DNA from: Octopus sinensis
Taxonomy: Eukaryota
Assembly (NCBI RefSeq): GCF_006345805.1
Contig: NC_042997.1
Location: 48,236,001-48,300,000 of the forward strand
Direction: 5' to 3'
Length of the DNA stretch: 64,000 bases
The translations under genes were made by a program, and so were the position numbers. Below the pieces are notes generated by a model. The model was not told where the DNA came from. It did not search any database and worked only from the letters and a program-made list of their open reading frames with translations. Below are positions 1,201-57,260 of this stretch, one piece after another; position 1 is the first letter of the stretch; each line of letters begins with the position of its first letter.

Positions 1201-1210
1201 AATGATTCCA

Positions 1211-1425
1211 GTGGGCCGGTGGCTGTGTACGGTCGCCTCAATGTCGCCCAGAGCGTGCTCTGGTCGCCATAGCGTCGACTGTGGGCCGGTGGCTGTGTAC
1301 AGTCGCCTCAATGTTGTCCAGAGCTTTGCCCATGACATTCCATGTAAAGCATGTGTAATATTTGAATAAAATTGGTTGTGTAGTTCTCAAGGTTTAGGGT
1401 TTCAGACAGACACACATTCTCAGTT

Positions 1426-3258: not shown

Positions 3259-3452
3259 ACAGCGAGCTGGCAGAAAATTTAGCACGCCTTCGTCTGTCTT
3301 TACGTTCTGTGTCCAAATTCTACCGAAGTCGAATTGGCCTTCCATCCTTTCGGGGTCGATAAATTAAGTACCAGTTGCGTACTGGGGTAGATCTAATCGA
3401 CTGGCCGCCTCCCCCAAAATTTCGGGCCTTGTGCCTAGAGTAGAAAAGAATA
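3259..3452 (+). mobile_element. SINE family A (tRNA-derived; cctttcggggtcgataaattaagtaccag central domain)
   Basis: Same sequence recurs at 7.8, 20.0, 20.3, 41.8 and 42.0 kb. Has a B-box-like (g)ttcaaatt. Confidence 0.8.
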
Positions 3453-7230: not shown

Positions 7231-7757
7231 CTTTAGCAAGGTCATAGTTTTTATTATTTGTCTTTACAGTTTTTTACAGCCCAGCTCATTCACTTTTAGG
7301 AGAGGACAACATGTCTGCGGCAAGTAAATAATTAAGCACAATATATATTTATACTAAAGACAACAAATGCATTTAATATTGTTTAGATCTGCAGATAAGT
7401 CATTTCTTCAGTGTCGTATTTCCGGTGCGGAATGCAAGTGAATGAAATTTTAATGTATACGTACACATTAACAGTGGATGACTGTTCGATTTATGAAGTG
7501 AAATTGTGAAGTTGAGAAAGTGGTTTAATCTTGTTTTGAAAAGTAAAGTGAGAAAAAGAAAGAAAGAATAAACTAGAAGGAAAAAGATAACAGCTTATAG
7601 TAAAAAGTTAAATCGAACTTAACGGTACGTAATACATTTCATGCCAAATTTCGAAGGGGTTCTTAAAAAAAATTGGAATTTTTCGGAAATTTTTCGTTTA
7701 CATATTTTCTTTTTGATTTACACTTACATATTTGAAAAACCTATTTGTGAGAGAATA

Positions 7758-7989
7758 TATATTTCTTTACTACCCACAAGGGGCTAAACACAGAGGAGAA
7801 AAACAAGGATAGACAAACGGATTAAGTCAATTACATCGACCCCAGTGCGTAACTGGTACTTAATTTATCGACCCCGAAAGGATGAAAGGCAAAGTGGACC
7901 TCGGCGGAATTTGAACTCAGAACATAACGGCAGACGAAATACGGCTAAGCATTTCGCCCGGCGTGTTAACGTTTCTGCCAGCTCGCCGC
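7758..7989 (-). mobile_element. SINE family A, full-length young copy
   Basis: Near-identical reverse complement of 20275-20498. Confidence 0.85.
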
Positions 7990-12359: not shown

Positions 12360-12523
12360 TAAGTGTAAACAATTCAGAAGTACATTATTTACATTCGACG
12401 GATATTTGTCCTCATCTTGTTTGTTGATAACACAACGTTTCGACGGATATACCCTCCAGCGTTCTTCAGGTGTCTTGGGGAAATTTCGAACCTGGATTCT
12501 CATTCCTAAGGTATTTTTCGATG

Positions 12524-12525
<2 letters not shown>
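12360..12525 (-). ncRNA. Hammerhead-ribozyme-bearing repeat module, copy 1
   Basis: Minus strand gacac-CTGAAGA-acgctgg...ccgtc-GAAACGTT-gtgtt, with helix II partly decayed. It follows an (AAT)n tract. Confidence 0.6.
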
Positions 12526-12564
<39 letters not shown>

Positions 12565-12565
<1 letters not shown>

Positions 12566-14445
12566 TGTAGTTTTATTTTTATAGCGTGCTTTCACTTCAC
12601 TACCGAGCGCAGCTCTGTGCCTTGGGTATGTGCTGTGATTTGTTGTGATGCTCTGATGGTTATTGTATGGAAAGTGTTCTGCGTAGGATGTGTGCAGTGC
12701 CTAGTAGTGCAATTTTCTGTATGTTATATGTGTTTGTAAGTCCTGGTGTTTTTGTTATGTATTTGTCTGAATATTTTTTTATCATGCCTAATGCACCTAC
12801 TATGATAGGAATTGTTTCTGTTTTCAGGTTCCACATTCTAGTTACCTCTATTTCCAGGTCTTTGTATTTTGAGAGTTTCTCCATTTCTTTTAGAGACACG
12901 TTGTCATCTGCCGGTATCGATACATCAATTAGAAAGCATTTTTTCTTCATGATCTCTGACAACTATATCTCGTCTGTTGGCCTTAATTTCTCTATCTGTG
13001 TGTATCGGCATATCCCAGAGTATGGTTGCTTTCTCGTTTTCTGTGACCTTTTCTGGTGTGTGCCTATACCATCTTTTTTCTGTTGTTATTCCATAATGTT
13101 GGCATAGCTTCCAATGTATGTAGGTTCCAACTCTGTCATGTCTGTGAATATATTCCTTCTTAGCCAGGACTGGGCAGCTAGAGATAATATGATTTATTGT
13201 TTCTTGTCCATCTCCGCATATTCTGCAGTTACTTGTAATATTTCTTTTCATTACATGTTTTTGGTAATTTCTGGTGGGGAGGCTTTGGTCTTGTGCTGCA
13301 ATTAAAAATCCTTCTGTTTCTGCTTTGAGTCCTGAGCTACTCAACCATTGCTGGGATTTTTCTTTGTCTATTTCTTTTGCGTTTAGTTTAGTGCAGTATT
13401 TACCATGAAGGGGCTTTTCTTGCCATCGTTTTATCATGGTTCGTTGCTGTTCTATTTTTAGTTTGGATTTCATTTGTTTTATAGCTTTTGTTGTTTCTTC
13501 ATCATCTTCTTCTTCTTCTTCGTGTTTATTAGGTGGTATGATTTCTCGTTTGTATTTGTCAGCTTCCTTAAATACTGAGAACAGTTTTTTGTTTTGCTCG
13601 TGTTTTGCTGCTATCTGGATCAGTTTTCCTTCCTTCTGAAGTAGGTATTTTTGCAGTCCCTATGGTGGTTATTTTATAGTAGTTTCCGCAGCTGTATAAG
13701 GCCTCTACCACCTTCTATACGTTGTATATATAGTCTTTCTATGTCAGATTTTGGGTGATGCATCCTAGATCCTGTCAGTATTTTTCTTGTTTTCTATCTA
13801 TTTTGGACAGTTCATTTCGTGTCCAGTTAAGGATATTGTAGCTGTAACTTATAACTGGGACAGCTAAAGTGTTGATACCTATTATCTTGTTTTTAGCATT
13901 GAGCTCTGTTTTTAGTATTGATCTAACTCGTCTATAATATTCTTTTTTTATTTTCTCTTTCATTTGTGTGTGTTGTGTCTTATCTAGTTCATGGATTCCT
14001 AAGTATTTGTAAGTTTGGCTTTGGTCTAATTCTTTTATTTCATTGGTTTTATCTAGCGTGATGTTGTTACTCTTAACTAGTTTTCCTCTTTTCATGGTTA
14101 CTTTGGCGCTTTTTCTAATCCAAATTTCATATCTATTTCCTTGGTAAATCCATGAACTGTCTTTAATAGTGTTTCCAGCTGTTTGTCATTTGCAGCGTAT
14201 AGTTTTAGGTCATCCATATATAAAAGGTGGCTGATCGTTTTGCCGTAACATTTATATCCGCATCCAGTTCTATTTAGCATATCAGATAGAGGTGACAGTG
14301 CCAAGCAGAAAAGGAGTGGAGAGAGCGTGTCTCCCTGGAAAATTCCTCTTCTAATGGGGATGTCTTTGGTTTTCATGAGTCCCTCTTTTGTTTGGAGGTG
14401 TAGGACTGTTTGCCATTTATTCATAGAGTGCTCTATTCATAGAGT
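12565..14445 (-). mobile_element. R4/Dong-like RLE non-LTR retrotransposon, 5'-truncated
   Basis: RT motifs GIFQGDTLSP and YMDDLKLY, CCHC knuckle CRICG..HIISSC, RHD, and RLE motif IDVSIPAD..KEMEKLSKY. (TAA)n lies at both ends. Confidence 0.9.
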
Positions 14446-14447
14446 GC

Positions 14448-14499
<52 letters not shown>

Positions 14500-17130
14500 T
14501 TTTTTTTTTCTTCTTTCAAATTTTCTTCCATTTCTTGCCGAGTGTCTTCCCGACTCCTAGGGCAAAGAAACTCATAGCATACATTGGTAGGCCATTAAAC
14601 CAAACTCAGTAGTTCGTTCATTTTAAATTAAAATACATGAGCAGCAACAGTTCTCACATCGACAATGCTCTTCTCAATACGTGTGATGTACCAGTTAAGA
14701 CAATCTTTTGCACTTCTTGCAGGGATGGTAAGCCAGGGATCATTCTCATATAATTTTCGGTTCTCTTCTTGATCATTCCTAGTGCTCCTACGATCACTGG
14801 TATTGTAACCGCCTTGAGATGCAACATTTTCTCAATTTCAATGAGTAGGTCTTTATATTTTCTGAGCTTGTCAACTCTTTCGCTGAGATATTATGATCAC
14901 AGGGGATGCTCATGTCGATCAATAAGCAAACTTTATTGTTTTGGCCTTTCACAACAATATCTGGTTTATTGGCCTTGATGGTTCGGTCTGTATGTACTGG
15001 AAAGTCCCACAGAATGGTTACATTTTCTCCTTCAGTTACAGCCTCAGGGTGGTGATTATACCACTTGTCGCAGTTTTGATATTGTAATGCCGACTTATTA
15101 GCCAGTGGAGATATTGGCCAACTCTGTCATGTCTTAATTTATACTCCACTGGTGCTAAGACTTTACATCCAGAGATTAGGTGGTCCACTGTTTCAATCAT
15201 GTCGTTGCAGAATCGGCATTTTGGGTCTGCTCCATTTTTCATCACATTGGCCTGGTAGTTCCGGGTTGATAGGCTTTGGTCTTGAGCACCAGGATGAAAC
15301 CTTCGCTCTCTGCTTTTAGCCCTGAGCTCCGCAGCCACTGATGGGTTTGCTTCTGGTCAACATCAGCTTGTTTGCTGCGGGTCACATATTTGCCGTGCAG
15401 AGGTTTCTCCTCCCACCTATCAGCCAATTGCTCGTGCGCTTTTTTCATTGCCATCATTTTCACCTTCTTTGCAACAATAGTTGCCGTACTTCCCTCGGGT
15501 TGTTCAGTTTGGGTATCCTGGACGAGATCAATAGCAAATTTTTTGCTTTCCTTGATGATAGAATGAAGCTTCTTTCGTCTCTCGTGATTTTCCACGAGCT
15601 TTAGCATCCAGTCATTCGTTATTTCGAGATATTTGGCCAGTCCAATTGTGGTTGTTTTGTAAGCTAGTTCAAATTGGATCAGGCCTCGACCTCCTTGGGC
15701 TCTGGGGAGGTAAAGGCGATCTACGTCTGCCTTTGGGTGGTGCATCCTATTACAACTCAGCAGCTTGCGTATTTTTCTATCTATATTCTTTACTTCACTC
15801 ATATTCCAGTTCAACACATTATAGCTATAAGTAACAACTGGAACTGCTAGGGAATTTATAGCTAACACCTTGTTACGTGCATTTAGTTCAGATTTCAGGA
15901 CTGCACGAACTCTCCTATAACATTCCTTCCTGATTTTCTCTTTCATGCTTGCATGCTGAATACCAGAGCCTTCATTTATCCCTAAATATTTGTATGTTTG
16001 TTCTTGCTCAAGCTCTCTAATGACTGTGTCAACATCTAACACGACTGAATTTGTGGTCTTCACTTTCCCTTTCTGGAAAGTGGCCTTGGCACACTTCTCA
16101 AGTCCAAACTCCATCCCGATGTCATCGCTGAATGATTTCACGGTGCGCAATAGGCCTTCAAGTTCCTTATTGTCTTTACCATAAAGTTTTAAGTCATCCA
16201 TATAAAATAGATGGCTTATTTTTTTATTGGCAATTTTATACCCATACCTTGTTCTGTTTAATTCACTTGTAAGGGGTATTAGGGCTATGCAGAATATTAA
16301 AGGTGAAAGTGAGTCACCTTGAAAAATTCCACAGTTGATGTTTATATTTTCTGAGGCAAGTACTCCATTAGAGTGGTATAATTGGAGATTCGTATTCCAC
16401 AACGACATATTGTGCTTCAGGAAGTTTGAAATCACGGGGGAAATTTTGAAGATGTCCAGCGATCTCAAGATCCATGGATGTGGTATACTGTCGAAGGCCT
16501 TTTTATAGTCAATCCATGCGTTGTTTTTTCGTTTTCCTGGCTATCTTTAACAGGTACAATAGAATTTCTTGTATCTTCAGGCCTTTGCGTACTTTGGTCA
16601 GATGGCAGTCTTTCAATTAAGCCTCGTGGCGGGCTATACTGTTCATCTGATTCTTCATTTCCTTTGTGTCATATTTATGTCATTTTCCGTTGCGTGCTTG
16701 ATCGCGCTTATTTCACTGTCTGTGAGTCTGTTATTTCTAAAGATATCCCTCCTCACATTTGCTAATTTGTTCTCGTCCAAATAGGGCCTACTGTCTTGAT
16801 TCCGTGTTCTCCATATACTGTAAGAGTTTGCGGTGTGCCTCTCTTGAGATGGCCTACCTAATGCATAGTAATAAGCGTATATTACTTCTTTATACTCTTC
16901 TCGGGTCCATTTGTTCCGCTTACATTTTTCTGTCTGTGGTGGTTGTGGTGGTGAACTTGGAGGGCTCGAGCTGGGGGATTTCCCGTTCAAGTGACCATCC
17001 ATGTCCGTATTCGGAGAAGAGTTTGTGCCAGTTGATGACTTTTCGATCCCAGGCTGGCTCTTCCCTGGGGTCGCGCTTCCAGATTAACCATAGGACAAGC
17101 GATTTGGTATACTGATTTAGTTTTCCTTTT
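14500..17130 (-). mobile_element. R4/Dong-like RLE non-LTR retrotransposon with internal deletion
   Basis: N-terminal ORF 16655..17002 (KWTREEYKEVIYAYYYA), RT ORF 15242..16468 (QGDSLSP, YMDD), CCHC + RHD ORF 15036..15338. The 3' end abuts (TAA)n. Confidence 0.9.
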
Positions 17131-17565
17131 AGTTTCCAAAAACATTTTGGTGCTACGATAATGTTATCATTTTTTTAGCTTTGATTGGCTCGTGGGGAGA
17201 CGGCCATCATTGCCGTTACAATTATAATCGTACCATTATAGCAGCCGTAGTCGGCTTATTATTGTTATTATCATCACCATTACCATCACTATCATCATTA
17301 TCACCACCATTACCATCATCATTATCATCATCACCATCACCATCACCACCACCATCATCAATGATATTGTTTTATGTGTAGTCACAGCAGTATCTTATTA
17401 TTGTTATTTTTGTTTTTTTATCATTATCACCATCACAGTAGTGTCTGTCTGTCTCGTTGGCTGGCTGACTGTCTTTTTTTTTTTTTTTTTTAGGTGCGGT
17501 CCTCTCGGTCAAAAAAAGTTCAGATGTTTACTACTATTAGGCTTAAGAAAAATTAAGGAAGGGCT

Positions 17566-18471
17566 GTTCTGTATTGTTTGTGAATAGAGAAGTTGTGTTC
17601 GACCAGAGAGAATCGTAGCATAATCATTTTTTTTTTTCCACGTGCGTTTGTGTTATTGCAATAAAAAGTGTTTGTATATTTCCTGTAAGGTAATATTGTG
17701 GAGGTTGAAGTTGACTTTTCTAGAGATGTTTGTATGTCCAGTTAGAAGAACAGGTGTGTTTTTACAATAAAAAGTATATGTTTACATTTATATTTGAATA
17801 TTCAGGGAGGAAGCAAAGAAAAGTCAGATTTTCATAGAAAGTTTTAGGGTTTTGTAAGTCCACAAAAAGAAAAAAAAGAAAAGCGTGATGCTTTTAGAGA
17901 GAAGAAGAAAAAAAAAAGGATGTTTACAGAGGCAATTGTGGGTATCAAAGTTTTTAAAGCTGGTCGAATGTATGATTGAAAACTGTAGATATGTAAATTT
18001 GTAAATTTTCTTAACTTATTTTGAAGGGGTGTCCTGTATTATTTGTGAATAGAGAAGCTGTGTTCGATCAGAGAGAATCTTAGCATCATTATTTTTTCCA
18101 TGTGCGTTTGTGTTATTGCAATAAAAAGTGTTTGTATATTTCGTGCAAGGTAATATTGTGGAGGTTGAAGTTGACCCCTCTAGAGATGTTTGTATGTCCA
18201 GTTAGAGGAACAGGTGTGTTTTGCAATAAAGAGTATATGTTTACATTTATATTTGAATATTCTGGGAGGAAGCAAGGAAAAGTCAGATTTTCATAGAAAG
18301 TTTTAGGGTTTTGCAAGTCCACAAAAAGAAAAGCGTGATATTTTTAGAGAGAAGAAAAAAAAGGGTGCTTACAGAGGCAGTTGTGGGTATTAAAGTTTTT
18401 AAGGCCGATCGGATGTATGTTTGAAAGCTGCAGATATGTAAATTTGTAAATTTCTTAACCCACTTTGAAGA
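17566..18471. repeat. Diverged direct tandem duplication (about 465-bp period), possibly of a decayed LINE ORF2 C-terminus
   Basis: tgtgaatagagaag..gtgttcga...gtaaatttgtaaattt..ttaac present at ~17566-18027 and ~18031-18471. Confidence 0.85.
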
Positions 18472-18632
18472 GAATTTCAAATACTCACGAGGTATTGTAG
18501 ATGTTCCAGTCTTTGAGAGTTATTTTTCCCCGTTGCTAAACTGGCCCATATTAGTGTTTCTATGGCTTTCAGCCACCGAACTGTCAGAGCACTGAGGAAC
18601 ACGTCCAGCCGCTGTCAAGGCTGGCGCTCTTC

Positions 18633-18840
<208 letters not shown>

Positions 18841-18912
18841 TTCAGGTCACTGCTTGGAATCGAACTCGGAACATTGGGGTTAGTAGCCCGCGCTCTTAAC
18901 CACTACGCCATA
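18841..18912 (-). mobile_element. tRNA-derived Pol III SINE head running into (AAT)n
   Basis: Minus strand tggcgtagtggttaagagcgcgggctactaaccccaatgttccgagttcgattcc has A-box TGGCGTAGTGG and B-box GAGTTCGATTCC. Second copy at 39352-39413. Confidence 0.7.
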
Positions 18913-19044
18913 TACCTGAAGAAGGCTGGAGAGTATATCAGCCGAAACGTTGTGTTAACAACAAACAAGATGAGGACAAATATCCGTCGAATGTAAATAA
19001 TGTAAACAATTTACATAATTTCTCATGTCTTAAATATAGAACTG
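18911..19044 (+). ncRNA. Hammerhead-ribozyme-bearing repeat module, copy 2
   Basis: CTGAAGA (18916-18922), then a, ggctg...cagcc, GAAACGTT (18944-18951), gtgtt. Confidence 0.7.
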
Positions 19045-19957
19045 AATTCGGAAGTAATTGATTCTTCCTCGATCACTGTGACTAAGGCACTCTTCATGAC
19101 CAGAAAGCTATCCAGACCAACGCAAATGGATAGCTATTTGGAAGCTGATGTGGTTCTAACATTATTGCCATGAGCTAATATGCAAGTCTTGGAAAGTGAA
19201 ATTATTGCGTAGCAAAAGCAAGCTCTACGAAAACTAAATCACCAGGTAACTTCACTTCACAACTGTACCAAACGTGTGTACTTTTGAGGATACTTTTTAG
19301 ACAGAAGTTAGTGACAGTTGTAGACTCACTCACAATTAAGAATGATTCGGCTGGTGCCGCATTTTACCGACTACAGAAGAGTGAAAATCAAATGTTTTAT
19401 TGGTGAGTTTTGAATTCTTATAAGGAAAATAGTAGCAACTAACTACTAAAATCATTCTCTCCAGAATTCGAACGATTCTGTGGATCAATCACAAGGATTC
19501 TTATTGATTTATCTGCCTTCAGTGGTTCAATTAAACTTAGGTAAATAAAAATATAGACCTCCACATATCCCATAAAGAAAAATGAAGGCATAAAGTTTGC
19601 AAAACAGTAGATATATACAAAATAGAGGGAAATATGGCTTTATTTCCGTATAAATGCAAAATAAAATTTAATAAATGAAAGTGAAGAGCAGTTACGGAAA
19701 ATATCCGGACGTGGATAAAAAATCACCAGTTATGTCAAGTTATACACGACGACTCTGACAGTGATCCTCTCGTATTAAATCCGGATGACCTAATGGTGCC
19801 AGAAAGCATATAGTGAGAGTCATTGTTCTCTAAGTATTCCCTGTTTTATACTCCAAGATCATTGATATGTTAACCAAGAATGTTCTGCATACGCAAGACT
19901 TTTGTAATCGGCTCTTCTTCCCCATATATTACATAGTCGTTATCTACTTGTGAATGA

Positions 19958-20177
19958 AGGCAACAAGCTGGCAGAACAGTTAGCATGCCGTACAAAATGC
20001 TTAGCGGCATTTTGTCCCTTTTTATGTTCTGAATTCAAATTTCTCCGAAGTCAATTTTGTCTTTCATGCTTTCGGGGTCGATGACAAAAAGTACCAATTG
20101 AGCACAGGGGTTGATGTGATCGACAACCCCCCCCCCAGCAAACATTTTAGGCCTTGTGCCGACAGTAGAAAAGATTA
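19958..20177 (+). mobile_element. SINE family A, diverged
   Basis: Homology to 3259-3452. Confidence 0.75.
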
Positions 20178-20274
20178 TCAATTTCTGAAGGCCCAGCCTG
20201 GCATTGCGCTTCGTTCCCATGATAATGAATTTACCCCATCTTGTTGATTTTAGAATAGCCACTAACTCTTTTAT

Positions 20275-20498
20275 AGCTGGCAGAAACGTTAGCACGCCGG
20301 GCGAAATGCGTAGCCGTATTTCGTCTGCCGTTACGTTCTGGGTTCAAATTCCGCCGAGGTCGACTTTGCTCTTCATCCTTTCGGGGTCGATAAATTAAGT
20401 ACCAGTTACGCACTGGGGTCGATGTAATCGACTTAATCCGTTTGTCAGTCCTTGTTTGTCCCCTCTGTGTTTAGCCCCTTGTGGATAATAAAGAAATA
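20275..20498 (+). mobile_element. SINE family A, young copy
   Basis: Near-identical to the reverse complements of 7758-7989 and 41974-42208. Confidence 0.85.
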
Positions 20499-21309
20499 TA
20501 TTTTATACCTCGACCTTCTTCAGGTTTTCTCCCCCATTCCCTTCACTGACATCCAGCTTCGATATGCTTCCTGTCATTAAAAGAGGAGGGAGTGGTCCTG
20601 CTGGGCGGTGATGTCTTGGGTTTATCAGCTCCAGGAACATATGTCACGGTAATACCTTCCATCATTATTAGGGAAGTTAGTAATTTTATTCACATCGCAA
20701 ATAATTACGAGAAACAAGGGTGACTGCCACATTATTTTCATTAGAAGTACGTGTCGGTTTTTATTTCATTAAATTATTTGATTAGCAGAATCGTTAAACA
20801 AGGGAGTTACGTGCCTAATGCTATTTATGTTATGTGTCAAAAGCTATTTATCTTTTGATTTTAAATTCTGAAGCGATCGGTTTAGTTCTTCATTCTTCTG
20901 TAGTCGACAAAATAAATCCCAGGTTATTCTAGAATTGAACACAGTGCTAACATTCTACAGAATGTGTGATATTTTGCCAAAATTAGAAGTCCTTATCATA
21001 TCTCGTTAGAGAGAAGTAGGTGGAGGCCTCCCCAAGAAACAGGATCGAGACTAATTTTTATCAATTTCATTTACCTGACAGCTCTATAGATAAGGTATTC
21101 ATACAACTATAAACTTTTCACTGTTTTGAGAAAGGTGTCACCATTGCAACGTTCAGTATTCATGTTTATATAGCAAACTATTTTCACATGAACTTAAATT
21201 TGTTGAGTAGTCAATCACTAGGAGTCTTATAGAATAAATAATGAACATTTGTTGAATATTTAATATTCTTCGCTCATCAAAGTAGGAATTTCTTTTTCTG
21301 CCCTTACAG

Positions 21310-23170: not shown

Positions 23171-23309
23171 AACACATACATACATATATATATACATACA
23201 TATATATATATATATGTATATATATATTTATATATATATAGATAGATAAAACTTACATGGAAATGGTTGCGTAGCGTTCGATCATATAATAATATGAATA
23301 ATATTACTG

Positions 23310-25416
23310 ACAGCCAGACGCTTTGCAAATAGGTATTGGCAGGAAATCTGTCAGAGTATCCAGTCAGCTGCTGACAGGGGCGACACCCGTGGGATGTATG
23401 CTGGTTTGAAGAAGGTCCTCGGTCCATCCGCAACCAAGTCAGCCCCTCTGAAATCAACTACTGGAGATCTCATCAGGGATCAAGGCATGCAAATGGATAG
23501 ATGGGTGGAGCACTACCAGGATCTCTACTCACGGGAGACTACAGTGGCTGAGGATGCATGTCGAGAGTGTTAAGATCTTGCCAGTCATGTGCAAACTTGA
23601 CAGTCCGCCATCTATAGCAGAGCTCACCAAGGCTGTTGACTCCCTAGCAAGAAACAAGGCTCCGGGAAAAGACGGCATCCCCTCAGAGATCATCAAAGCT
23701 GGCAAAAACACCATCCTGCTTCGGCACCTTCATGAGCTTCTGTGTCAGTGCTGGGAAGAGGGTACAGTCCCTCAGGATATGTGGGATGCTAACATCATTA
23801 GGCTTTACAAAAACAAAGGTGACCGTGGTGATTGTAACAATTACCGTGGTATATCTCTTCTAAGCACTGTTGGAAAGACCTTTGCCCGCGTTATCCTGGC
23901 CAGGCTACAACTACTTGCTTCTCGAATCTATCCGGAATCGCAGTGTGGCTTTAAAAGAAGCAGATGAACTATTGACATGATATTCTCCATACGCCAACTT
24001 CAGAAATCCAGAGAGCAGAAAATGCTATTATATATGGCCTTCATTGATCTAACAAAGGCTTTTGACTCGTTAAACAGAACAGGCCTCTTCATCCTGCTCC
24101 AAAAAATCGGATGTCCACCAAAGCTGCTGAGGATCATGAAGTCTTTCCATGGTGACATGCAAGGCACCATACAGCTCAACGGTTCAACATCAGCCGCCTT
24201 CCAAATAAAAAACGGGGTAAAGCAAGGTTGCGTCCTCGCTCCTACATTGTTTGGCATCTTCTTCTCGCTCTTACTCTCACATGCCTTTCAGACATCAGAT
24301 GATGGAGTGTTTCTGCACAGTAGAATTGACGGGAAACTGTTCAATCTCTCGCGCCTATGTGCCAAGACCAAAATCAGAAACGTCCTGATCAAGGAGATGC
24401 TATTTACCGATGATGCCGCTCTGGTATCACACAGAGAAGAAACCCTCCAAAGGCTCATTAACTGTTATGAGCAAGCATGTAACGACTTTGGCTTAGCTAT
24501 CAGCCTTAAGAAGACCAACATCATGGGTCAGGCTACATCGGACATCCCAAACATACATATTGGAGACCACAAATTACAAGAGGTGGAGAAGTTTACCTTT
24601 CTGGGCTCTACCGTCACCTACAACCTATCCCTTGATGCTGAGCTCAATATACGCATTGGCAAGGCAGCTGCTGCGATGGCCCAACTCTCCAAACGGGCTT
24701 GGGACAACAATAAGCTGACCAAGACCACGAAAATGAAGATCTACCAGGCATGTGTACTTAGCACTCTACTGTATGGAAGTGAGACTTGGACTCTATACAC
24801 ACGCTAAGAGCGTCGCCTAAACATCTTTCACTTGCGCTGCCTCCGAAAAATCCTCCGCATCAAATGGCAGAATCATATCCCCAACAAAGATGTCCTCAGG
24901 CAAGCAGGAAAACCAAGCATGTTTGCACTCCTCACACAAAGACGTATGAGATGGCTTGGGCATGTTAGCCGTATGAAAGATGGCAGAATCCCCAAGGACA
25001 TACTCTACGGAGAGCTTGCTAGGGGTACTAGGTCTGTGGGTAGACCGATCTTACGTTACAAGGATGCTTGCAAAAGGGACATGAAGGCCTGCAACATCAA
25101 TATTAGCGGTTGGGAGGCAGTTGCCAGCAACTGTGGAGAATGGCGACGTACCGTAAAAGAGGGAATACAAAGGAGTGACAGAAAGAGAGAGGAGAATTGG
25201 AAAGAAAAGAAGAGACGTCAACAAGAGACTATGGCACTACAACCAGCCAGGAACAGTCTTCGCTACATTTGCGGTACCTGCCAGAGGGAGTGTTTGTACA
25301 AGATAGGACTACACAGCCACAGCAGGCAATGTATCAGGACATGAAATATAAAAGCCGGACTAGACTACTTTGTGCGCAACTCCATTGTCTCCCGAGACAA
25401 AAAGGATACAACAACA
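23310..25416 (+). mobile_element. RTE/BovB-like LINE, 5'-truncated, with RT and intact-looking 3' end
   Basis: NYRGISLLS, ESQCGF, FIDLTKAFD, GVKQGCVLAP, LFTDD, LYGEL and C-terminal C2H2 CGTC..HSHSRQC. Tail ccattgtctcccgagac..acaacaac. Several stops and frameshifts. Confidence 0.92.
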
Positions 25417-25999: not shown

Positions 26000-27532
26000 G
26001 AAAATAGTAAAAAGTGAAAAAACTACAGAAGGCTTAAAGGTTGAAAAATATATATATACTTGCGTCAATATGTCTGAAGAATATTAAAAAAAATTTTTTG
26101 CCCTTACAATGACATAATTTAGAAGAAAGACCGGTTTCGCGTTTAGCTTTTCAAATTTCTTACGACGTTATGTTTATGTTGAATAGAGTTATCGTTATGT
26201 TTATGTTTAAAAGAGTTCTAAATAAGGGGAGGTAATGAGTGATTTCTTCCGGTGTAAGGGAGATAATCGCTTAAAATTTTTTTCGTTTCCCTTGGTGTGA
26301 ATTTCTCTGTATCAGTATGTTGGCATGGTTAAGTCTGGGCTTGTACTTTTCAATGAAGAATGTTTTCTTGTTTAGTCTAATTTGTGTTGATGATCCGATA
26401 GCACATTGGTAAAATGGAAAGATTAAAAATTGTGGTAGTAGTTGCTTTGCGCATTTCTCAATGTGCTCACTAAAAGGTATCATTCTGTATTCTGGGAATG
26501 CAATCTGTTGTCGATGCAGTGTGCATCTACGTCTGAGTGATAGTCCCGTGGATCCCACGTAGTCTTGGTGGCAGCCCGAGCATTTTATGACATAAATTAT
26601 GTTTTCAGAGGCACAAGTAAAGTTAGATTTGATCTTGAATTTCTGTCCCTCTTTAAAGAGGAATTCTGATCCTTCTAGCAGGTTTGGACATGTTGCACAG
26701 TTCGATCTACCACATTTTTTTACTTTTGCATCCGTAATTTTAGAAGACAATTTTGCCTTTGTGAGAATCTTTTTAAGTGATTTAGGCTGTTTGTAGCTTT
26801 TAATGATTTGGTGTATGTTTAGAATTTCCTTTAATTTTGGGTTTTTATGAAGTATTGGTAAATTCTGGGTGATGATGGTGAAGGCTTCTTTGTTTCTGGG
26901 GTTGTATGTAGATATGTAAGGTAGTATTTTCGGGGAAGGTGTGTTGTTGTGTTGAACTTTTCTTAAAGTTTCTATGTTAATTTCTGTTGCACGTCTGATC
27001 CCATCCTCTATGAGTTGAGCTGGGTAATGTCTGTCAATTAGGGTGTTTTTGAGTTCTTGTAGTCTAAAGTTCCTGATATTTTGTTCTGACACTATTGTGC
27101 ATATCCTTCTTGCAAGGTTGAAGGGGATGTTTGTTTTAGTGTGTCTTGGGTGGCATGAATCAAAAAGAAGGTATTATTTGGCGTCTGTGGCTTTGTAAAA
27201 AATGTCTGTTTCTATTTTAAGGTTAATTTTTTTAATTATTATATCCAAGAACGGGAGCTCCTTTTGGTTGTATTCCATTGTGAACTGTATATTTGGGTTT
27301 ATTCTGTTCAATAGGTTTTTAAATTTTAGGAGTTTATCTGTGTTTTCATTCCAGAGTATAAAACAATCGTCTAAGAATCGTTTCCAATTCTCTTTTATGT
27401 ATTGAGAAAGGGGGTTTCCAAAGATTGATAAATAATTTTTAATATTCTTCAGACATATTGACGCAAATATATATATAGTTTTCAACGTTTAAGCCTTCTG
27501 TAGTTTTTTCACTCTTTACTATTTTCTATATA
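25995..27532 (-). mobile_element. Penelope-like element (RT C-terminus + GIY-YIG endonuclease), 5'-truncated, with inverted pseudo-LTR
   Basis: WKRFLDDCF, LPFLDI, YKATD (27174..27485); CGRSNCATC and IIYVIKC..YVGST (26271..27092). About 95-bp inverted repeats at ~25995-26090 and ~27433-27532. Flanked by (TA)n. Confidence 0.92.
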
Positions 27533-38965: not shown

Positions 38966-39094
38966 TATTAATTCTACAATATACTAACATGATACATACA
39001 AATCTAAAATAGTGCAAGGATAATTCTGTATATATACAGAGACATACTTACAAACATCGTGCATACACATGTGTAAGCCACATATATCTATAAT

Positions 39095-39275
39095 TACAGT
39101 TCTATATTTAAGAGATGAGGAATTATGTACATTATTTACATTATTTACATTTGACGTATATTTGTCATCATCTTGTTTGTTGTTAATACAACGTTTCGGC
39201 TGATATATCCACCAGTCTTCATAAAGTGTCTTGGGGAAATTTGAACCTGGGTTCTAATTCCAAACGTATTTTTCA

Positions 39276-39340
<65 letters not shown>

Positions 39341-39413
39341 CATTATTATTATTCAGGTCACTACCTGAATCGAACTCCGAATCTTGGGGTTAGTAGCCCG
39401 CGTTCTTAACCAC
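39095..39413 (-). mobile_element. Composite: tRNA-like head + (AAT)n + hammerhead module (copy 3, core mutated)
   Basis: Head 39413->39352, AAT tract, then gacac-tttatga-agactgg..cagcc-GAAACGTT-gtatt and the shared tail ending aaatatagaactg. Confidence 0.7.
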
Positions 39414-39439
39414 AGTGGTGTTTTTAAACTTATGAATAA

Positions 39440-40680
39440 TAATATCCCAATAAAAGAGGGAGGCCGTGGACTTTTACAACTGGGATTATCAATGAAAATT
39501 GCAATAATTGGCCTAGACATCTACCTGAAAATCTCTGAGGACTCGATGTTAAAACTTGTCTCAAAGTATGGAAACAAGAAAGCATCATACTCAGTAACAA
39601 AACAGGCAGAGGAATGTATAAGTGAATTCCAAATACAAATTCCAGAATTTGACGTACTGGAAACAAGCATAGAAAAAGCTAAGCGTAGGAAAATCCGTGC
39701 TAAAACTGCTGTCTTAGATATTTTTTACTAATAAATGGCAAGAAAACCTCTCGATGGCAAATACCCAAAGAGAGCTAATGATGCCGATGTTGACAAAGAC
39801 CTGACCTATCACTGGCCTCTGGCTTAAAATCTGAATCAGAAGGTTTTATCATAGCAGCCCAAGATCAATGTTTATCTACAAGAAACTGCAAGGCCAACAT
39901 ATTAAAGAACAGCAGTAGCCCAACATGTCGTGTATGTCAACAAAAGAAATGAGACCATTGACCATGTGGTCTCCATGTGCAGTCTTCTTGCGCCTACAGA
40001 GCATCCCAACAGGCATGATAGAGCTGCACAATATATTTACTGGGTAATTTCCAAAAATCTGGACTTGTCCCATGATAAAAACTGTTGGGAACACATACCA
40101 CCTCCAGTGCTTGAATATGATCACATCTCACTCCTCTGGAACTTCATCATTCAAACTGACAGAAAGATGGAGACAAATAGGCCAGACATTATATTGAAAG
40201 ACTTCAGACAAAAATCATGCCTCCTCATTGATATGACTGTCCCAATCGATATAAATGTATCTGTCAAGACCTACCAAAAGCTGAGCAAGTATAAAGATCT
40301 TGAAATAGAAATCAGCAAAATGTGGAAGCTGAAGACTAAACCAATAGCTATAGTCATAGGTGCCCTGGGAATGATAGCAAAAGGGGCTGATTGATACCTA
40401 GCTCAGGAAACCCCAAAATGGCAGAAATTCAAAAGATAGTGCTCATGGGAACTGCCCATATCCTACTTAAAATACTATGTAATCTCAAATTTTAAAAGAA
40501 ATTCAAAATTTTCTAATGTTTCCTTAAACATTCTCTAGAATAATGCGATGTACAAAACCAAATATCTGGCACTCTACGCATAACACCAGCATGAAATTCT
40601 AGCGTGCTGTCTCTTGAGGTCTCCGGGTGAGACTTGGAGCCAACTTGAACAAATGCAAAGCAAAACTCAAACATAAAATA
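39440..40680 (+). mobile_element. R4/Dong-like RLE non-LTR 3' fragment (family of 54-57 kb)
   Basis: EGGRGL, RHD, NRPDIILKD, IDMTVP and KLSKYKDL motifs. Ends in (AAT)n. Confidence 0.9.
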
Positions 40681-40732
40681 ATAATAGTAATTATAATAAT
40701 AATAATGATAATAATAATAATAATAATAATAA

Positions 40733-40797
<65 letters not shown>

Positions 40798-40799
40798 GC

Positions 40800-41400
40800 T
40801 AGTTGACCATGTCCCATAGTGGCTGACGATATGTGCATGTCTGATCACAAGCAGAAGTAGTGGGGGAGCATCACAGCCGTGTGTTGAAAGGAATTCTTGG
40901 AGGTTTGGATAATTCACCTTTGGAAACATGGGTGGTTCGTTCAACATCCTCAAACAATACTTATTCAGGGACCTTTTCAGCGGGATGGGCTACTCGACCA
41001 GAACAAGATTCGGATCTTTTCCTTTTGAACGGCACTTTGTAACATAATTTCTATGTAACTAAAAAGTTTTAAACTTCGTATACTGGTAGAATGTGTTTAT
41101 AAAACATCTTTTTCTCTTGGTTTTATTGAGAAAATTCTATAGGTTGTAACATATTTCGTTTAAAACTTTTTAGTTACCTAGAAATTATGTTACAAGGTGC
41201 CGTTCAAAAGGAAAAGATCCGAAGTTTCTAACTGGGTCCCACCAACAAGGTCATGCGCTGTTTATCTTGATATGAGATCACTATGTCGCGCACATATGGT
41301 TGTGATGCATGTGCCTGATGTACCCTTATCAGACGGGTAGTCACGATGGGTATACTGGGCCTCGTATATTTTACCCCAGCATACACTGCTCTCTCACTCA
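40800..41400 (+). mobile_element. SINE-like repeat family C, interrupted by a MITE
   Basis: Segment 41270-41345 recurs in reverse at ~47020-47100. Ends in (AAT)n. Confidence 0.55.
41012..41220. mobile_element. MITE with about 62-bp TIRs (Merlin-like termini)
   Basis: ggatcttttccttttgaacggcac...aaac and its reverse complement at 41158-41220 (2 mismatches). 8-bp flanks caagattc / gaagtttc. Confidence 0.85.
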
Positions 41401-41439
41401 ATAATAATAGTAATGATAATAATAATAATAATAAGAGCA

Positions 41440-41592
41440 ACAACGAAAATACCTTAGGAATGAGAAACCAGGTTCGAAATTTTCCCCAAGACACCTGATG
41501 AAGGCTGGAGGGTATATTAGCCGAAACGTTGTGCTTAACAACAAACAAGATGAAGATAAATATCCATCAAATGTAAATAATATAAATAATGT
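41440..41592 (+). ncRNA. Hammerhead-ribozyme-bearing repeat module, copy 4 (canonical core)
   Basis: gacac, CTGATGA (41495-41501), a, ggctgg-agggtata-ttagcc, GAAACGTT (41523-41530), gtg. Confidence 0.7.
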
Positions 41593-41814
41593 CTATACAA
41601 TAAAATCACCGAATCGAAGTTATGAAATACAAAGCAGCTTTTATAAATCTTGAACAATCAGACTGTTTTGACTGAAACATTATCATAACGGAGCTTTAAT
41701 TTATTTTAGAAAATACCTACATCATATTTATTGCAACAGCCTACCGATAAATGTCAGGCACAACAACGCATACCAAAGTTCCACTAAATTACGCCAACGT
41801 AATATTCTCTTCAT

Positions 41815-42208
41815 ATCTTCTCTAGGCGCAAGGTCCAAACTTTTGGGGGAGGATGCAGTCGATTAGATCGAATCCAGTACGCAACTGGTACTTAATTTAT
41901 TGACCCCGAAAGGGTGAAAGGCAAAGTCGACATCAGCGGAATTTGAAGGAAGAACTTAAAGACAGACGAAATACTTATTTCTTTACTACCCACAAGGGGC
42001 TAAACACAGAGAGGACAAACAAGGACAGACAAACGGATTAAGTCGATTATATCGACCCCAGTGCGTAATTGGTACTTATTTAATCGACCCCGAAGGTATA
42101 AAAGACAAAATTGACCTCGGCGGAATTTGAACTCAGAACGTAACGGCAGACGAGATACTGCTAAGCATTTCGCCCAGGGTGCTAACATTTCTGCCAGCTC
42201 TCCACCTT
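41815..42208 (-). mobile_element. Two adjacent SINE family A copies
   Basis: The central domain appears twice (41870-41945 and 42040-42130). Confidence 0.85.
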
Positions 42209-44108: not shown

Positions 44109-44247
44109 TATTAGACTAGCTTAAGGTGACCCGTTCTATTAGACTAGCTTAAGGTGACCCGTTCTATTAGACTAGCTTAAGGTGACCCGTTCTATTAGAC
44201 TAGCTTAAGGTGACCCGTTCTATTAGACTAGCTTAAGGTGACCCGTT
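44109..44247. repeat. Perfect 28-bp tandem repeat, about 5 copies
   Basis: Unit tattagactagcttaaggtgacccgttc. Confidence 0.95.
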
Positions 44248-53349: not shown

Positions 53350-53408
53350 AAATAATAATAATAATAATGATAATAGTAGTAATAATAATAATAATAATAA
53401 TAATAGTA

Positions 53409-53441
<33 letters not shown>

Positions 53442-53639
53442 GTAGTAGTAATAATAATAATAATAGTAATAATAATAATAATAATAATGATAATAATAAT
53501 GATGATAATAATAATAATAATAGTAATAATAGTAATAGTAATAATAATAATAATAATAGTAGTAGTAATAATAATAATAATAGTAATAATGATAATAATA
53601 ATGATGATAATAATAATAATAATAATAGTAATAGTAGTA

Positions 53640-53670
<31 letters not shown>

Positions 53671-53702
53671 TATAATAATAATAATAATAATAATGATGAT
53701 GA

Positions 53703-53756
<54 letters not shown>

Positions 53757-53844
53757 TAATAATAATATAATAATATAATAATAATAATGATGATAATAAT
53801 ATAATAATAATAATAATAATAATAATAGTAATAATAATATAATA

Positions 53845-53930
<86 letters not shown>

Positions 53931-53932
53931 TG

Positions 53933-53965
<33 letters not shown>

Positions 53966-53968
53966 GTA

Positions 53969-54012
<44 letters not shown>
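53350..54012. repeat. Long (TAA)n-type microsatellite
   Basis: Direct observation. Confidence 0.95.
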
Positions 54013-54014
<2 letters not shown>

Positions 54015-57000
54015 ATGAGCTAAAAAATCAAATCATGATTGAATGGCTGAAAATTAAAGAAACCAGCATGGATGGGCGTGATACACTTCCTAAAATCCGC
54101 AACTCTAACCAAAACATGAAAATAATTGGTAAAATCCGGCTTGCACTTAAGGATATAATTTCAGTTAATGATGTTGATATCACAAACCTCAACCACCTAT
54201 ACTATGCATCCGCGAAAATCTCAACGATCCTATGTGGTGTAAAGATTAGAAAACGGCAACAGTCGCACAAAAAGCCTTCTTGGCAAGAGCGTCTGCAACA
54301 ACAAATTAAAGTATTTAGATCTGACATTGAATATTTGAAAAACCTTAAGGCTCACAAGACTACCAAACCTACAAAAACCCCAAAATTACTGAAAAAATAC
54401 AATATGAAAACTATACTTGATATTGATGCCACCATAGAAACCATCAAACAAAAGGTATCTGCCAAAGCTGCCCGCATAGCGAGGTATGAAAAGCGTGTTA
54501 GATTTTTCAAGGACAACAACATGTTCAAAAATAACACCAAGAATTTTTACAGGAAGATAGGAAAAACAGCGTTTACTGCAGGGTCTGTACCATCAAAAGA
54601 AGAAGTGCAGAGATTTTGGAATAAAATCTGGGCAGAAGAAAAACAACACAACGAAAAGGCCCCCTGGATTGACAGAATATCTACAGAACTGGACCCCTTA
54701 GAAGAGCAAAAGTGGGGTGGGAGGGTGTCAAGGTAGAAGATATAAGATCTGCTCTCAGGAGGTCAAGCAAATGGAAGTCTCCAGGAAAGGATAAAATTCC
54801 TAACTTCTGGCTGAATGCCTTCCCAGAGAGCCATGAACTGCTAACAGAACTGTACAATGATGTTCTGCAACACCCTAGTAGGATGCCTCCTTGGCTAGTT
54901 AATGGGTTAACATTCCTGCTTCAAAAAGTGAAGAAACAAATGAACCAAAAAACTATAGACCCATAACCTGCTTAACAACTATGTACAAAACACTAACATC
55001 TGTCCTGACGGAATATACCTATAGTTTTTAACAGACAGCAGCATATTCCCTAATGAACAGAAAGATGTAAACGTGGATCCTACGGCTGTAAAGACCAACT
55101 ACTCATCAATAAGATGATCTTAGAAGATTGTCACAAACGACACAAAAACTTATCAATAGCCTGGATAGACTATAAAAAGGCTTTTGATAGCCTACCACAT
55201 AGCTGGATTAGGAAATGCCTTGAAATGTATAAGATAGCACCAACTCTGCGAAACTTCTTGACTGTAAGTATGAGATCATGGAGAACCACACTAACTCTGA
55301 ACAGTGACAGTGAATCCCTAAATGCTGGTGATGTGATGTAAAAATTCGTGTGGAATTTTCCAGGGTGACTCACTGTCACCACTCCTCTTTTGTTTATCCT
55401 CAATACCTCTCTCAAAGCTGCTCAATGACGCGCAGTACGGGTATAAAATGTTTGATAAAAATATAAATCATCTCGTTTACATGGATGATTTAAAGCTTTT
55501 TGCAAAAAATGATCAACAACTCAAGGGCTTACTAGCGATAGTCAAACAATTCAGTGACGACATCAGAATGCAATTCGGCCTCGATAAATGTGTGCAAAGG
55601 CTACCTTTATCAAAGGAAAAATGACAGAAACATCTAACGTTAACCTTGACCAACAGAATGTCATAAAAGAACTAGACCCAGCGGAGAGCTACAAGTACCT
55701 AGGGGTAATTGAAGGGAACGGAATAAGGCATTCAGAGATGAAGGAAAGGATCAGGAGAGAATGCTATCGAAGAGTGAGAGCAATACTCAAGACAGAGCTG
55801 AATGCAAGAAACAGGATCGAAGCAATCAATGCATTAGCTATACCAGTCGTGACTTACAGTTTCAATATTGTTAACTGGTCAACTACTGAAATATGTCAGC
55901 TCGACAGAAAAATAAGGAAACTGTTGACAATGCATAGAATGCACCACCCTAAGGCAGATACAGAACGACTCTATCTGCCAAGAAAAGAGGGAGGCCGTGG
56001 TCTTTTGCAACTGGCAATAACAATGAAGATTGCTACAGTTGGCCTAGACACCTACCTGAAAAACTCTGAGGACTGGATGTTAAAACTTGTCTCAAAACAT
56101 GAAAACAAGAAAGAAAGCATCAACTCAGTCACAAAACAGGCAAAGGAATATCTAAGTGAATTCCGAATACAACCAATTTCGGAATTAGAGATAGACATAC
56201 AAGAAACAAGCACAGAAAAAGCTAGGCGCATGAAAACCCGTGCCAAAACTGCGGCCTTAGATATTCTGAATAATAAATGGCAAAAAAACCTCTCTACGGC
56301 AAATACCCAAAGAGAGCGAATAATGCAGATATCGACAAAGCCCTGACCCATCAATGGCTAATGGCCTCTGGCTTAAAATCTGAAACAGAGGGGTTTATCA
56401 TAGCAGCTCAAGATCAATGCCTACCAACAAGAAACTACCAGGCCAACATATTAAAGATCAGAAGCAGTCCAACGTGTCGTGTATGCAAGCAACAAAATGA
56501 AACCATTGACCATGTGGTCTCCAAGTGCAGTCTTCTAGCGCCTACAGAGTATCTCAACAGGCACGATAGAGCTGCACAATATATTCACTGGGTAATCTGT
56601 AAAAACCTGGATTTGCCCCATGAAAAAAAACTGGTGGGAACACAAACCACCCCCAGTGCTTGAAAATGACCACATCTCACTCCTCTGGAACTTCACCATT
56701 CAAACTGACAGGAAGATAGATGCAAATAGGCCAGACATCATATTGAAAGACTTCAAACAAAGAACATGCCTCCTCATTGATATGACTGTCCCAATCGATA
56801 TAAACGTATCTGTCAGGACCTACCAAAAACTGAGCAAATATAAAGATCTTGAAATAGAAATCAGCAAAATGTGGAAGCTGAAGACTAAAACAATACCTGT
56901 TGTCATAGGTGCCCTGGGAATGATAGCAAAAGGGGCTGATAGCTACCTAACTCAGATACCAGGAAACCCAAAATGGCAGAAGTTCAAAAGATAGTGCTCA

Positions 57001-57260
57001 TGGGAACTGCTCATATCCTACGCAAAATACTCTCTATGTAACCTCAAGGTTTAAAAACAACAATAATTTTCGGTATAAAAAAAAAAAAAAAAACTTTTTT
57101 TTTTAGACATTCATTAGTACAACATCCCACACCCCCAAATATATGGCACACTAGGCATAACAACAACATGAACTTCCAACCCTGTTGTCCCTTGAGGTCT
57201 CTGGGTGAGACTTGGAGCCAACTTGTACAAATATAAAGCAAAAGTCAAACATAGAATAAA
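54013..57260 (+). mobile_element. R4/Dong-like RLE non-LTR retrotransposon, 3.2 kb, 5'-truncated, frameshifted
   Basis: Consecutive ORFs 53930..56994 carry [41 protein letters not shown] and NRPDII. (TAA)n on both sides. Confidence 0.93.

What the first reader, a model, noticed from the sequence alone, without database searches (positions are those of the whole stretch)
41440..41592. Dispersed ~170-bp module with a minimal type-I hammerhead ribozyme, associated with (AAT)n tracts (4 copies in 64 kb)
Seen: the same module occurs at 12360-12525(-), 18911-19044(+), 39095-39280(-) and 41440-41592(+). Consensus is gacac-CTGA(T/A)GA-a-ggctg-loop-cagcc-GAAACGTT-gtgtt, i.e. helix I gacac/gtgtt, an extra A after A9, helix II, a loop-less palindromic helix III (ACGT) and a GUU cleavage triplet. 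Three copies directly follow an (AAT)n tract with different upstream neighbours (R4/Dong 3' end, tRNA head, SINE C). Known: minimal hammerheads with palindromic helix III occur in Penelope-like pseudo-LTRs and metazoan retrozymes and are thought to cleave as dimers. Inference: this is a high-copy, non-coding, ribozyme-processed retroelement that travels with or targets AAT microsatellites.
Basis: partly seen in the sequence, partly recalled or inferred. Interest (0 to 1): 0.72.

Follow-up and report, generated by a model that had tools for sequence, protein, structure and literature searches.

The report
Penelope retrotransposon ends, tRNA-type promoter
The four repeats are the paired ends of two dead insertions of an abundant protein-coding Penelope-type jumping gene whose hammerhead motif is a known feature, and their one unusual part is a tRNA-derived head, where most short copies begin, that likely works as an RNA polymerase III promoter.

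Summary
The module and its minimal hammerhead are real, but it is not a free non-coding retrozyme. It is the pseudo-LTR of a Penelope/Poseidon-type retrotransposon with an RT and GIY-YIG ORF, roughly 19,000 insertions in G000. The module also encodes the start of that ORF: the ATG lies 34 nt before the hammerhead core. The four window copies are the inverted arms of two insertions, one with a clear 12-bp target duplication. The (AAT)n tract is internal, and the 'different neighbours' (Dong/R4, 'SINE C') are later insertions into it. Only 2 of 178 module 3' ends are followed by (AAT)n. All of this matches published Poseidon biology. The unusual part is a tRNA-derived head with near-consensus A and B boxes. 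24 of 29 head-bearing copies start within 14 nt upstream of box A, and the longest copy has no T4 run on its sense strand. A Pol III promoter is likely but untested; a hairpin at the same place is the rival explanation. Seven literature searches listed no report of it. This scan had already noted what appears to be the same element at least eight times, here and in another genome.

The parts
41436..41592 (+). Right arm of insertion 2: Penelope pLTR module with short 3' end (no tail); ATG at 41460; one extra T before the hammerhead shifts the frame in this copy
41490..41535 (+). Minimal type-I hammerhead motif; C3 at 41495, predicted cut after 41530; one helix I mismatch
41400..41434 (+). (AAT)n tract, internal to the pLTR
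40797..41400 (+).
40673..40797 (+). (AAT)n tract between the nested Dong and X
39447..40672 (+). Nested, 5'-truncated Dong/R4-like non-LTR element (CCHC-region RHD and restriction-like endonuclease motifs; clade name recalled)
39354..39413 (-). tRNA-derived head of the left arm of insertion 2, starting inside box A, box B present
39277..39353 (-). (AAT)n tract of the left arm
39095..39277 (-). Left arm of insertion 2: module with the 34-bp tail (39095-39128); hammerhead core mutated
39087..39092 (.). Possible degenerate target duplication of insertion 2 (6-nt word shared with 41592-41597; not above chance on its own)
19045..19056 (+). Target-site duplication of insertion 1 (11 of 12 identical to 12371-12382)
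18914..19044 (+). Inverted arm of insertion 1: 5'-truncated module with tail (19013-19044); C3 at 18916, predicted cut after 18951
18843..18913 (-). tRNA-derived head of insertion 1 with boxes A and B
18633..18842 (-). (AAT)n tract directly after the head
17267..18632 (.). Nested, unexplained sequence (469-bp tandem duplication plus a trinucleotide tract); possibly the leader of the Dong below
14500..17266 (-). Nested Dong/R4-like element B (5' boundary approximate)
14448..14498 (-). (AAT)n tract between the two nested Dong elements
12565..14447 (-). Nested, 5'-truncated Dong/R4-like element A
12527..12564 (-). (AAT)n tract before the module
12381..12523 (-). Main arm of insertion 1: module with short 3' end; C3 at 12469; helix II broken
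12371..12382 (+). Target-site duplication of insertion 1, left copy

Best explanation
The module is the coding end-repeat (pseudo-LTR) of an abundant Penelope/Poseidon-type retrotransposon, lying behind a tRNA-derived head and an internal (AAT)n tract, and the head likely acts as an RNA polymerase III promoter that starts the element's RNA. Shown: unit order is ORF stop, palindrome, tRNA head, (AAT)n, ATG, hammerhead motif, tail, ORF; insertions are mostly short inverted pairs with the tail on one arm and a target duplication; Dong/R4 elements and repeat X later insert into the tract. Inferred: RNA starts about 14 nt upstream of box A and can run on through a T4-free ORF; the element's RT starts at one of two sites 34 nt apart downstream of the hammerhead, as shown for the anole element PAc, copies back to the RNA's 5' end, and often folds back on the palindrome to give the inverted arm. 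Most products therefore look like SINEs. The hammerhead is predicted to be weak, dimer- or protein-assisted and dispensable for insertion; a cut would separate the start codon from the ORF. My odds: Penelope pLTR identity about 0.97, Pol III start about 0.55.
For: RT-selected loci: 30 of 30 belong to this family and 18 have head plus module after the ORF. ORF-end-selected loci: head follows in 29 of 30. Head-selected loci: module downstream in 28 of 30. Module joined directly 5' of the ORF in most of 30 N-terminus-selected loci. ATG in frame in 7 of 10, and an independent relative, P0155, has the homologous hammerhead-frame peptide in its ORF. Tail on exactly one arm in 46 of 52 inverted pairs (p 5e-9); shared flank word of 8 nt or more in 26 of 52 against 1.4% of mismatched pairs. 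Box A matches the SINE consensus of PMC8969392 fully and box B at 10 of 11, spacing in range; best tRNA match 51 of 73, z 7.2. 24 of 29 head copies start between -14 and -1 of box A, against 0 of 27 ending that close to an ORF anchor. 0 T4 among 25 T3+ runs in 2.6 kb; 25 of 30 tRNA genes are followed by T4 or longer.
Against: No direct transcription evidence: two RNA-seq runs (one study, coded organism B) show both directions equally, 70-89% of reads running on into unlike flanks, and no pile-up of ends. A palindrome sits exactly at -14 to -3, and palindromes at pLTR 5' ends are known from rotifer Penelopes, so stalling or fold-back could make the boundary without Pol III. The T4 deficit is weak: P 0.02-0.06 on what is one independent long copy, G runs are equally short (ratio 0.06), and 5 of 39 modules carry T4 before the hammerhead. 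Loci come from best-hit lists biased to their queries. How an uncapped Pol III RNA would be translated is unexplained. No comparison family without a head was obtained.
Confidence: 0.62

Rival explanations
1. Same Penelope pLTR, but the tRNA head with its (AAT)n is a passive SINE remnant captured in the master's 3' UTR. RNA comes from Pol II (own or host read-through), and the sharp 5' boundary is made by the RT stalling or folding back at the palindrome.
For: Boundary coincides with the palindrome; several junctions are perfect fold-backs with either loop orientation. RNA reads look like host read-through. Studied PLEs have pLTR promoters with introns or TATA/Inr-like motifs. T4 deficit is only borderline.
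Against: Boxes A and B remain near consensus while the tRNA acceptor and T stems have lost pairing. Many starts lie at -10 to -1, also in copies with no inverted arm nearby. Other retroelements in the window carry T4 runs freely.
Confidence: 0.33
2. One reading: an independent, non-coding, ribozyme-processed retrozyme or SINE that targets or travels with AAT microsatellites.
For: 7 of 8 insertions in the unbiased 1.17 Mb lack ORF sequence. Animal retrozymes are proposed to be non-autonomous PLE derivatives.
Against: Module is contiguous and in frame with the RT/EN ORF; no tandem arrays of short units among the loci mapped; 2 of 178 3' ends followed by (AAT)n; copies span the cut site and 5' starts show no peak at it.
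Confidence: 0.04
3. The module is the 3' tail or passenger of Dong/R4 elements.
For: Dong 3' ends precede the module across an AAT tract in several loci.
Against: In L010, L020, L030, L033 and L190 the head lies upstream of the Dong piece, so Dong sits inside the tract. Dong 3' ends elsewhere end in (AAT)n without the module.
Confidence: 0.01

Closest known systems
PAc, Poseidon element of Anolis carolinensis (PMC11167929; parts 1-2 of 4 read)
   Same: RT plus C-terminal GIY-YIG; hammerhead overlapping the start of the ORF; tail defined by two RT start sites downstream of the hammerhead; AT-rich targets; no RNA-seq ends at the cut site.
   Different: Here the ATG lies 34 nt before the core (cut 69-70 nt into the ORF, versus 26 in PAc), and the pLTR opens with a tRNA-derived A/B-box head and an (AAT)n tract, neither described in the parts read.
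Minimal hammerheads of metazoan PLEs (PMC4209133; parts 1-2 of 4 read)
   Same: Short helix I, bulged base before helix II, G10.1-C11.1 pair, palindromic helix III, mostly single dispersed motifs, some opposite-strand pairs.
   Different: Helix II is 5 bp rather than 7-8; triplet is GUU; no tRNA head reported in the parts read.
Penelope elements of Adineta vaga (PMC3846280; passages read)
   Same: Inverted pLTRs, 31-bp tail on one arm, 8-10-bp target duplications, pLTR holding the first codons, palindrome at the pLTR 5' end.
   Different: Putative TATA/Inr promoter there; tRNA-type boxes here.
tRNA-derived SINEs (definition from PMC8969392, passages read); Sm-alpha of Schistosoma (recalled, not read)
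   Same: A/B boxes 10-15 nt from the 5' end, short length, very high copy number; Sm-alpha is recalled as combining a Pol III-type head with a hammerhead.
   Different: The short copies are the terminal part of a coding element and carry Penelope, not LINE, insertion signatures.
Non-LTR retrozymes (PMC7229834, passages read; bioRxiv 10.64898/2026.07.22.740005, part 1 of 5 read)
   Same: Type-I hammerhead, link to PLE pLTRs.
   Different: Retrozymes are non-coding tandem repeats of about 300 bp that give circular RNA; these copies are dispersed inverted pairs with a coding 3' half.

Membership tests
EN+ Penelope-like element, Penelope/Poseidon clade | Single ORF with PLE-type RT | tested here: met
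   RVT_1 above cut-off in L063 and L062; DKG motif seen in translations; all copies examined are broken by stops or frameshifts
EN+ Penelope-like element, Penelope/Poseidon clade | C-terminal GIY-YIG endonuclease with CCHH motif | tested here: met
   Motif residues read by eye in natural copies, 59% identity to the C-terminus of P0155; Pfam GIY-YIG did not hit own pieces and hit relative P0086 only below cut-off
EN+ Penelope-like element, Penelope/Poseidon clade | No CX2-5CxxC finger between RT and EN (separates from Neptune and Nematis) | tested here: met
   Absent in translations; criterion from PMC8557442
EN+ Penelope-like element, Penelope/Poseidon clade | Partial tandem forming pLTRs, inverted 5'-truncated copy, 30-40-bp tail at one end, target duplication | tested here: met
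   3' ends 34 nt apart in reads
EN+ Penelope-like element, Penelope/Poseidon clade | Hammerhead motif in the pLTR | tested here: met
   (motif only; 33 of 106 aligned copies pass the full descriptor)
EN+ Penelope-like element, Penelope/Poseidon clade | Phylogenetic placement with named Poseidon elements | not tested
   No labelled reference sequences were obtained
Minimal type-I hammerhead ribozyme | Self-cleavage after the NUH triplet | not testable with these tools
   Fragmented RNA-seq shows no end pile-up, which cannot decide it
Minimal type-I hammerhead ribozyme | Covariation or extra conservation of core and helices | tested here: inconclusive
   Core 31 substitutions versus 36 expected; 7 two-sided changes in 1173 cells. 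Neutral decay is expected of dead copies; the commonest shared variant inside the motif falls on the free N7 position
Rfam hammerhead families | Match to a covariance model | tested here: not met
tRNA-derived SINE | A and B boxes with 30-35 spacing, 10-15 nt from the 5' end | tested here: met
tRNA-derived SINE | Non-coding element separate from its partner, mobilised by a LINE | tested here: not met
   Head and module are integral to the coding element
tRNA-derived SINE | Transcribed by Pol III | not testable with these tools
   Indirect signs only
Non-LTR retrozyme | Non-coding head-to-tail tandem repeats of short hammerhead units | tested here: not met
Non-LTR retrozyme | Abundant circular RNA | not testable with these tools
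   No suitable library

The most novel reading that the evidence does not exclude
An autonomous, protein-coding retrotransposon that captured a tRNA promoter and is transcribed over its whole 2.6-kb unit by RNA polymerase III. Its T4-free ORF and its own terminal repeat spawn tens of thousands of SINE-like, hammerhead-bearing copies through Penelope machinery, with the ribozyme placed so that cutting removes the start codon and only tandem or re-ligated circular RNA is translatable.
Probability: 0.35. Interest if true: 0.78.

Novelty: new variant of a known kind. Interest (0 to 1): 0.52.

Why it matters
The hammerhead itself is ordinary for Penelope elements. If the head is a working Pol III promoter, this would be a coding retrotransposon using a promoter type otherwise typical of SINEs, and a natural SINE-like family mobilised by a Penelope enzyme. 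It would give a defined RNA 5' end for testing how Penelope inversions arise, an open question, and the internal (AAT)n explains how Dong/R4 elements pile up inside another transposon. For annotation, these copies should not be counted as SINEs or retrozymes.

Tried and rejected
Rfam and ARAGORN found neither hammerhead nor tRNA in the window or in L045, L186, L190, L240. Word-seeded protein search with the N-terminal 188 residues found nothing; the HMMER library search with an RT piece gave the relatives used. PDB sequence search gave only weak group II intron-type RT hits. Metagenome scan gave 12 distant PLE loci with no A/B-box pattern, one with a clear hammerhead, none close enough to serve as a sister control; viral scan gave none. 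Run finder: no RNA holder listed; guessed-RNA contig runs X1 and X8 were laid but cannot show starts or strand. A cut-site hot spot among 5' starts was looked for and not found; starts near it fall on a palindrome or on microhomologies. A whole-ORF synonymous shuffle failed because the majority sequence shifted frame after 190 codons. A search for a second Poseidon family in G000 returned only this family in the 30 loci fetched of 131 matches. The frequent C-to-T changes that would make stops in the module were considered as evidence against coding; they are close to background C-to-T rates and one is enriched by the query. First look-up in earlier findings returned an unrelated note.

Full report
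OBSERVATION. The module is present four times at about the stated places, 86-95% identical. The window is from a 2.72-Gb animal genome, G000; an octopus is my guess from recalled repeat content and was not tested. A strict descriptor finds 2 hits in the window against 0.005 per simulated window. Only 2 of 4 window copies and 33 of 106 aligned copies pass it. Rfam does not detect the motif.

THE PARENT ELEMENT. In 4 of the first 30 loci an ORF end lay upstream of a tRNA-like head. Searching with that ORF end gave 30 loci, 29 with the head directly after it. [quoted passage not shown] With a foreign RT as query, 30 of 30 loci fetched were this family; 18 had head plus module after the ORF, 4 had one of the two, 8 had neither within the locus. 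In loci chosen by the ORF's 5' end, module sequence was joined directly in front of the ORF in most of 30. The module is therefore the pseudo-LTR.

THE MODULE IS CODING. Of 26 non-duplicate loci, 10 held both anchors; in 7 of these the ATG 34 nt before the hammerhead core is in frame with the ORF, and four read open from the ATG into the conserved N-terminal motif. The closest relative in the protein library, P0155 from another assembly, aligns from the hammerhead-encoded peptide onward (41% over 179 residues). The commonest shared variants inside the frame are third-position changes, two of them linked into a subfamily (p 3e-10). This is known biology: the anole element PAc has its hammerhead inside the start of its ORF (PMC11167929), and a rotifer pLTR holds the first 12 codons (PMC3846280).

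FOUR COPIES ARE TWO INSERTIONS. I paired outward-facing arms within 7 kb, leaving out pairs that run into the ORF or lie at a locus edge, and after dropping duplicate loci. The tail was on exactly one arm in 46 of 52 pairs (22 of 23 among head-selected and unbiased loci), and 26 of 52 had a shared flank word of 8 nt or more against 1.4% of mismatched pairs. Both window pairs follow the tail rule. Insertion 1 (12381-19044) has a 12-bp duplication with one mismatch; insertion 2 (39095-41592) shares only a 6-nt word, so its pairing rests on architecture. Reads show two 3' ends 34 nt apart, matching the 30-40-bp tail of PLEs (PMC8557442) and the two RT start sites of PAc.

THE AAT LINK. The tract lies between head and module: 28 of 30 head-selected loci have the module downstream. 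Only 2 of 178 module 3' ends are followed by (AAT)n, both in one locus, and 3 of 58 AAT arrays in the unbiased sample touch the element. Dong/R4-like pieces and repeat X sit inside the tract with the head still upstream; X has (AAT)n at one or both ends in 9 of 10 unbiased hits. That Dong targets TAA repeats is recalled knowledge.

ABUNDANCE. Eleven blocks picked at round coordinates (1.17 Mb) hold 13 modules in 8 insertions, 9 heads all within them, and ORF sequence in 1 of 8. This scales to about 19,000 insertions (8,000-37,000). Copies decay neutrally: 31 core substitutions against 36 expected, and 7 two-sided helix changes in 1173 cells. This neither supports nor refutes an active ribozyme in the masters.

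THE HEAD. Box A matches the SINE consensus quoted in PMC8969392 fully, box B at 10 of 11, with 33-34 nt between them. The best match among 30 genomic tRNA loci has anticodon TCT, 51 of 73 identical, z 7.2; ARAGORN does not call it. Of 29 head-selected copies other than the query, 24 start between -14 and -1 of box A; of 27 independent ORF-end-selected copies none ended within 14 nt of its anchor (p 3e-11). The sense strand of the longest copy has 25 T3+ runs and no T4 in 2.6 kb (P 0.02-0.03 by Markov simulation, 0.06 by synonymous shuffle), while another PLE, four Dong pieces and two RTE pieces in the window have 7, 18 and 6. Across 76 pieces the 16 T4 runs are almost all private, but G runs are equally short. 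Against Pol III: a palindrome covers -14 to -3 and many junctions are fold-backs on it; RNA reads from two runs of one study look like unstranded host read-through with no end pile-up.

MECHANISM. Shown: anatomy, frame, pairing, nesting, 5' and 3' boundaries. From literature on PAc: nicking of AT-rich DNA, internal RT starts, a protein-assisted hammerhead that is not needed for insertion; minimal hammerheads cleave weakly and only as dimers. Inferred: Pol III starts at the head, RT copies from the tail back to that end, and fold-back gives the inverted arm. All module-spanning copies contain both sides of the cut site, so their templates were uncut or re-ligated.

NOVELTY. The pLTR, hammerhead, tail, inversions and ORF overlap are known. 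Seven searches of the open-licence library listed no paper on a tRNA-derived or Pol III promoter in a PLE (listings only, plus passages of PMC6962438, PMC13282606 and PMC6685494). Subscription journals, Repbase, Dfam and supplements were not seen. Eight earlier notes of this scan, two from this genome, reach the same reading; I saw them after forming mine, did not compare their sequences, and they are not independent evidence. Verdict: new variant of a known kind, interest 0.52.

Noticed in passing
window 40797-41400; L240, L190, L059, L062 and unbiased blocks: Repeat X, about 560 bp, sits in (AAT)n tracts (9 of 10 unbiased hits have AAT at one or both ends); possibly a non-autonomous passenger of Dong/R4. 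The window copy has an extra insert of about 220 bp that appears palindromic.
   Followed up: partly
window 12565-14447, 14500-17266, 39447-40672, 54000-57258: Four Dong/R4-like elements with RT and restriction-like endonuclease motifs, each ending in (AAT)n; three are nested in the Penelope pLTR tract.
   Followed up: partly
window 26271-27488 (-): A second, unrelated PLE (27% identity to P0155) with a cysteine finger before its GIY-YIG domain, so Neptune/Nematis-like; it has many T4 runs and no hammerhead pattern was detected.
   Followed up: partly
window 17361-18632: Unexplained sequence with a 469-bp tandem duplication and hairpins at its AAT-proximal end; no other copy of that end in the window or unbiased sample.
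   Followed up: partly
L010, L012, L015, L186 and others, palindrome before the head: The two-base loop of the palindrome occurs in both orientations at inverted junctions, as expected from fold-back priming.
   Followed up: partly
P0010 and P0042 N-termini: Both contain an ETS peptide that could be the hammerhead's 3' core read in another frame, which would put the start codon in or near the CUGAUGA box; inferred by back-translation only.
   Followed up: no
L290, about 3022 in element orientation; L212 at 5477: Other minimal hammerhead motifs with different helix II sequences, one in G000 and one in a metagenome contig with a PLE.
   Followed up: no
window 1-1237 (-) and 23306-25344 (+): Two related LINE fragments, RTE-like by recall.
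   Followed up: no
window 3289-3450, 7754-7987, 19966-20504, 41810-42203: A further dispersed SINE-like repeat family with several copies, one just downstream of the finding.
   Followed up: no
window 44109-44247 and 53351-54013: A perfect 28-bp x5 tandem repeat and a 660-bp (AAT)n array.
   Followed up: no
runs X1-X24: Holders of the pLTR carry four coded organism labels, so the family is probably shared among related species; reads or contigs under labels A, B and C were laid.
   Followed up: partly
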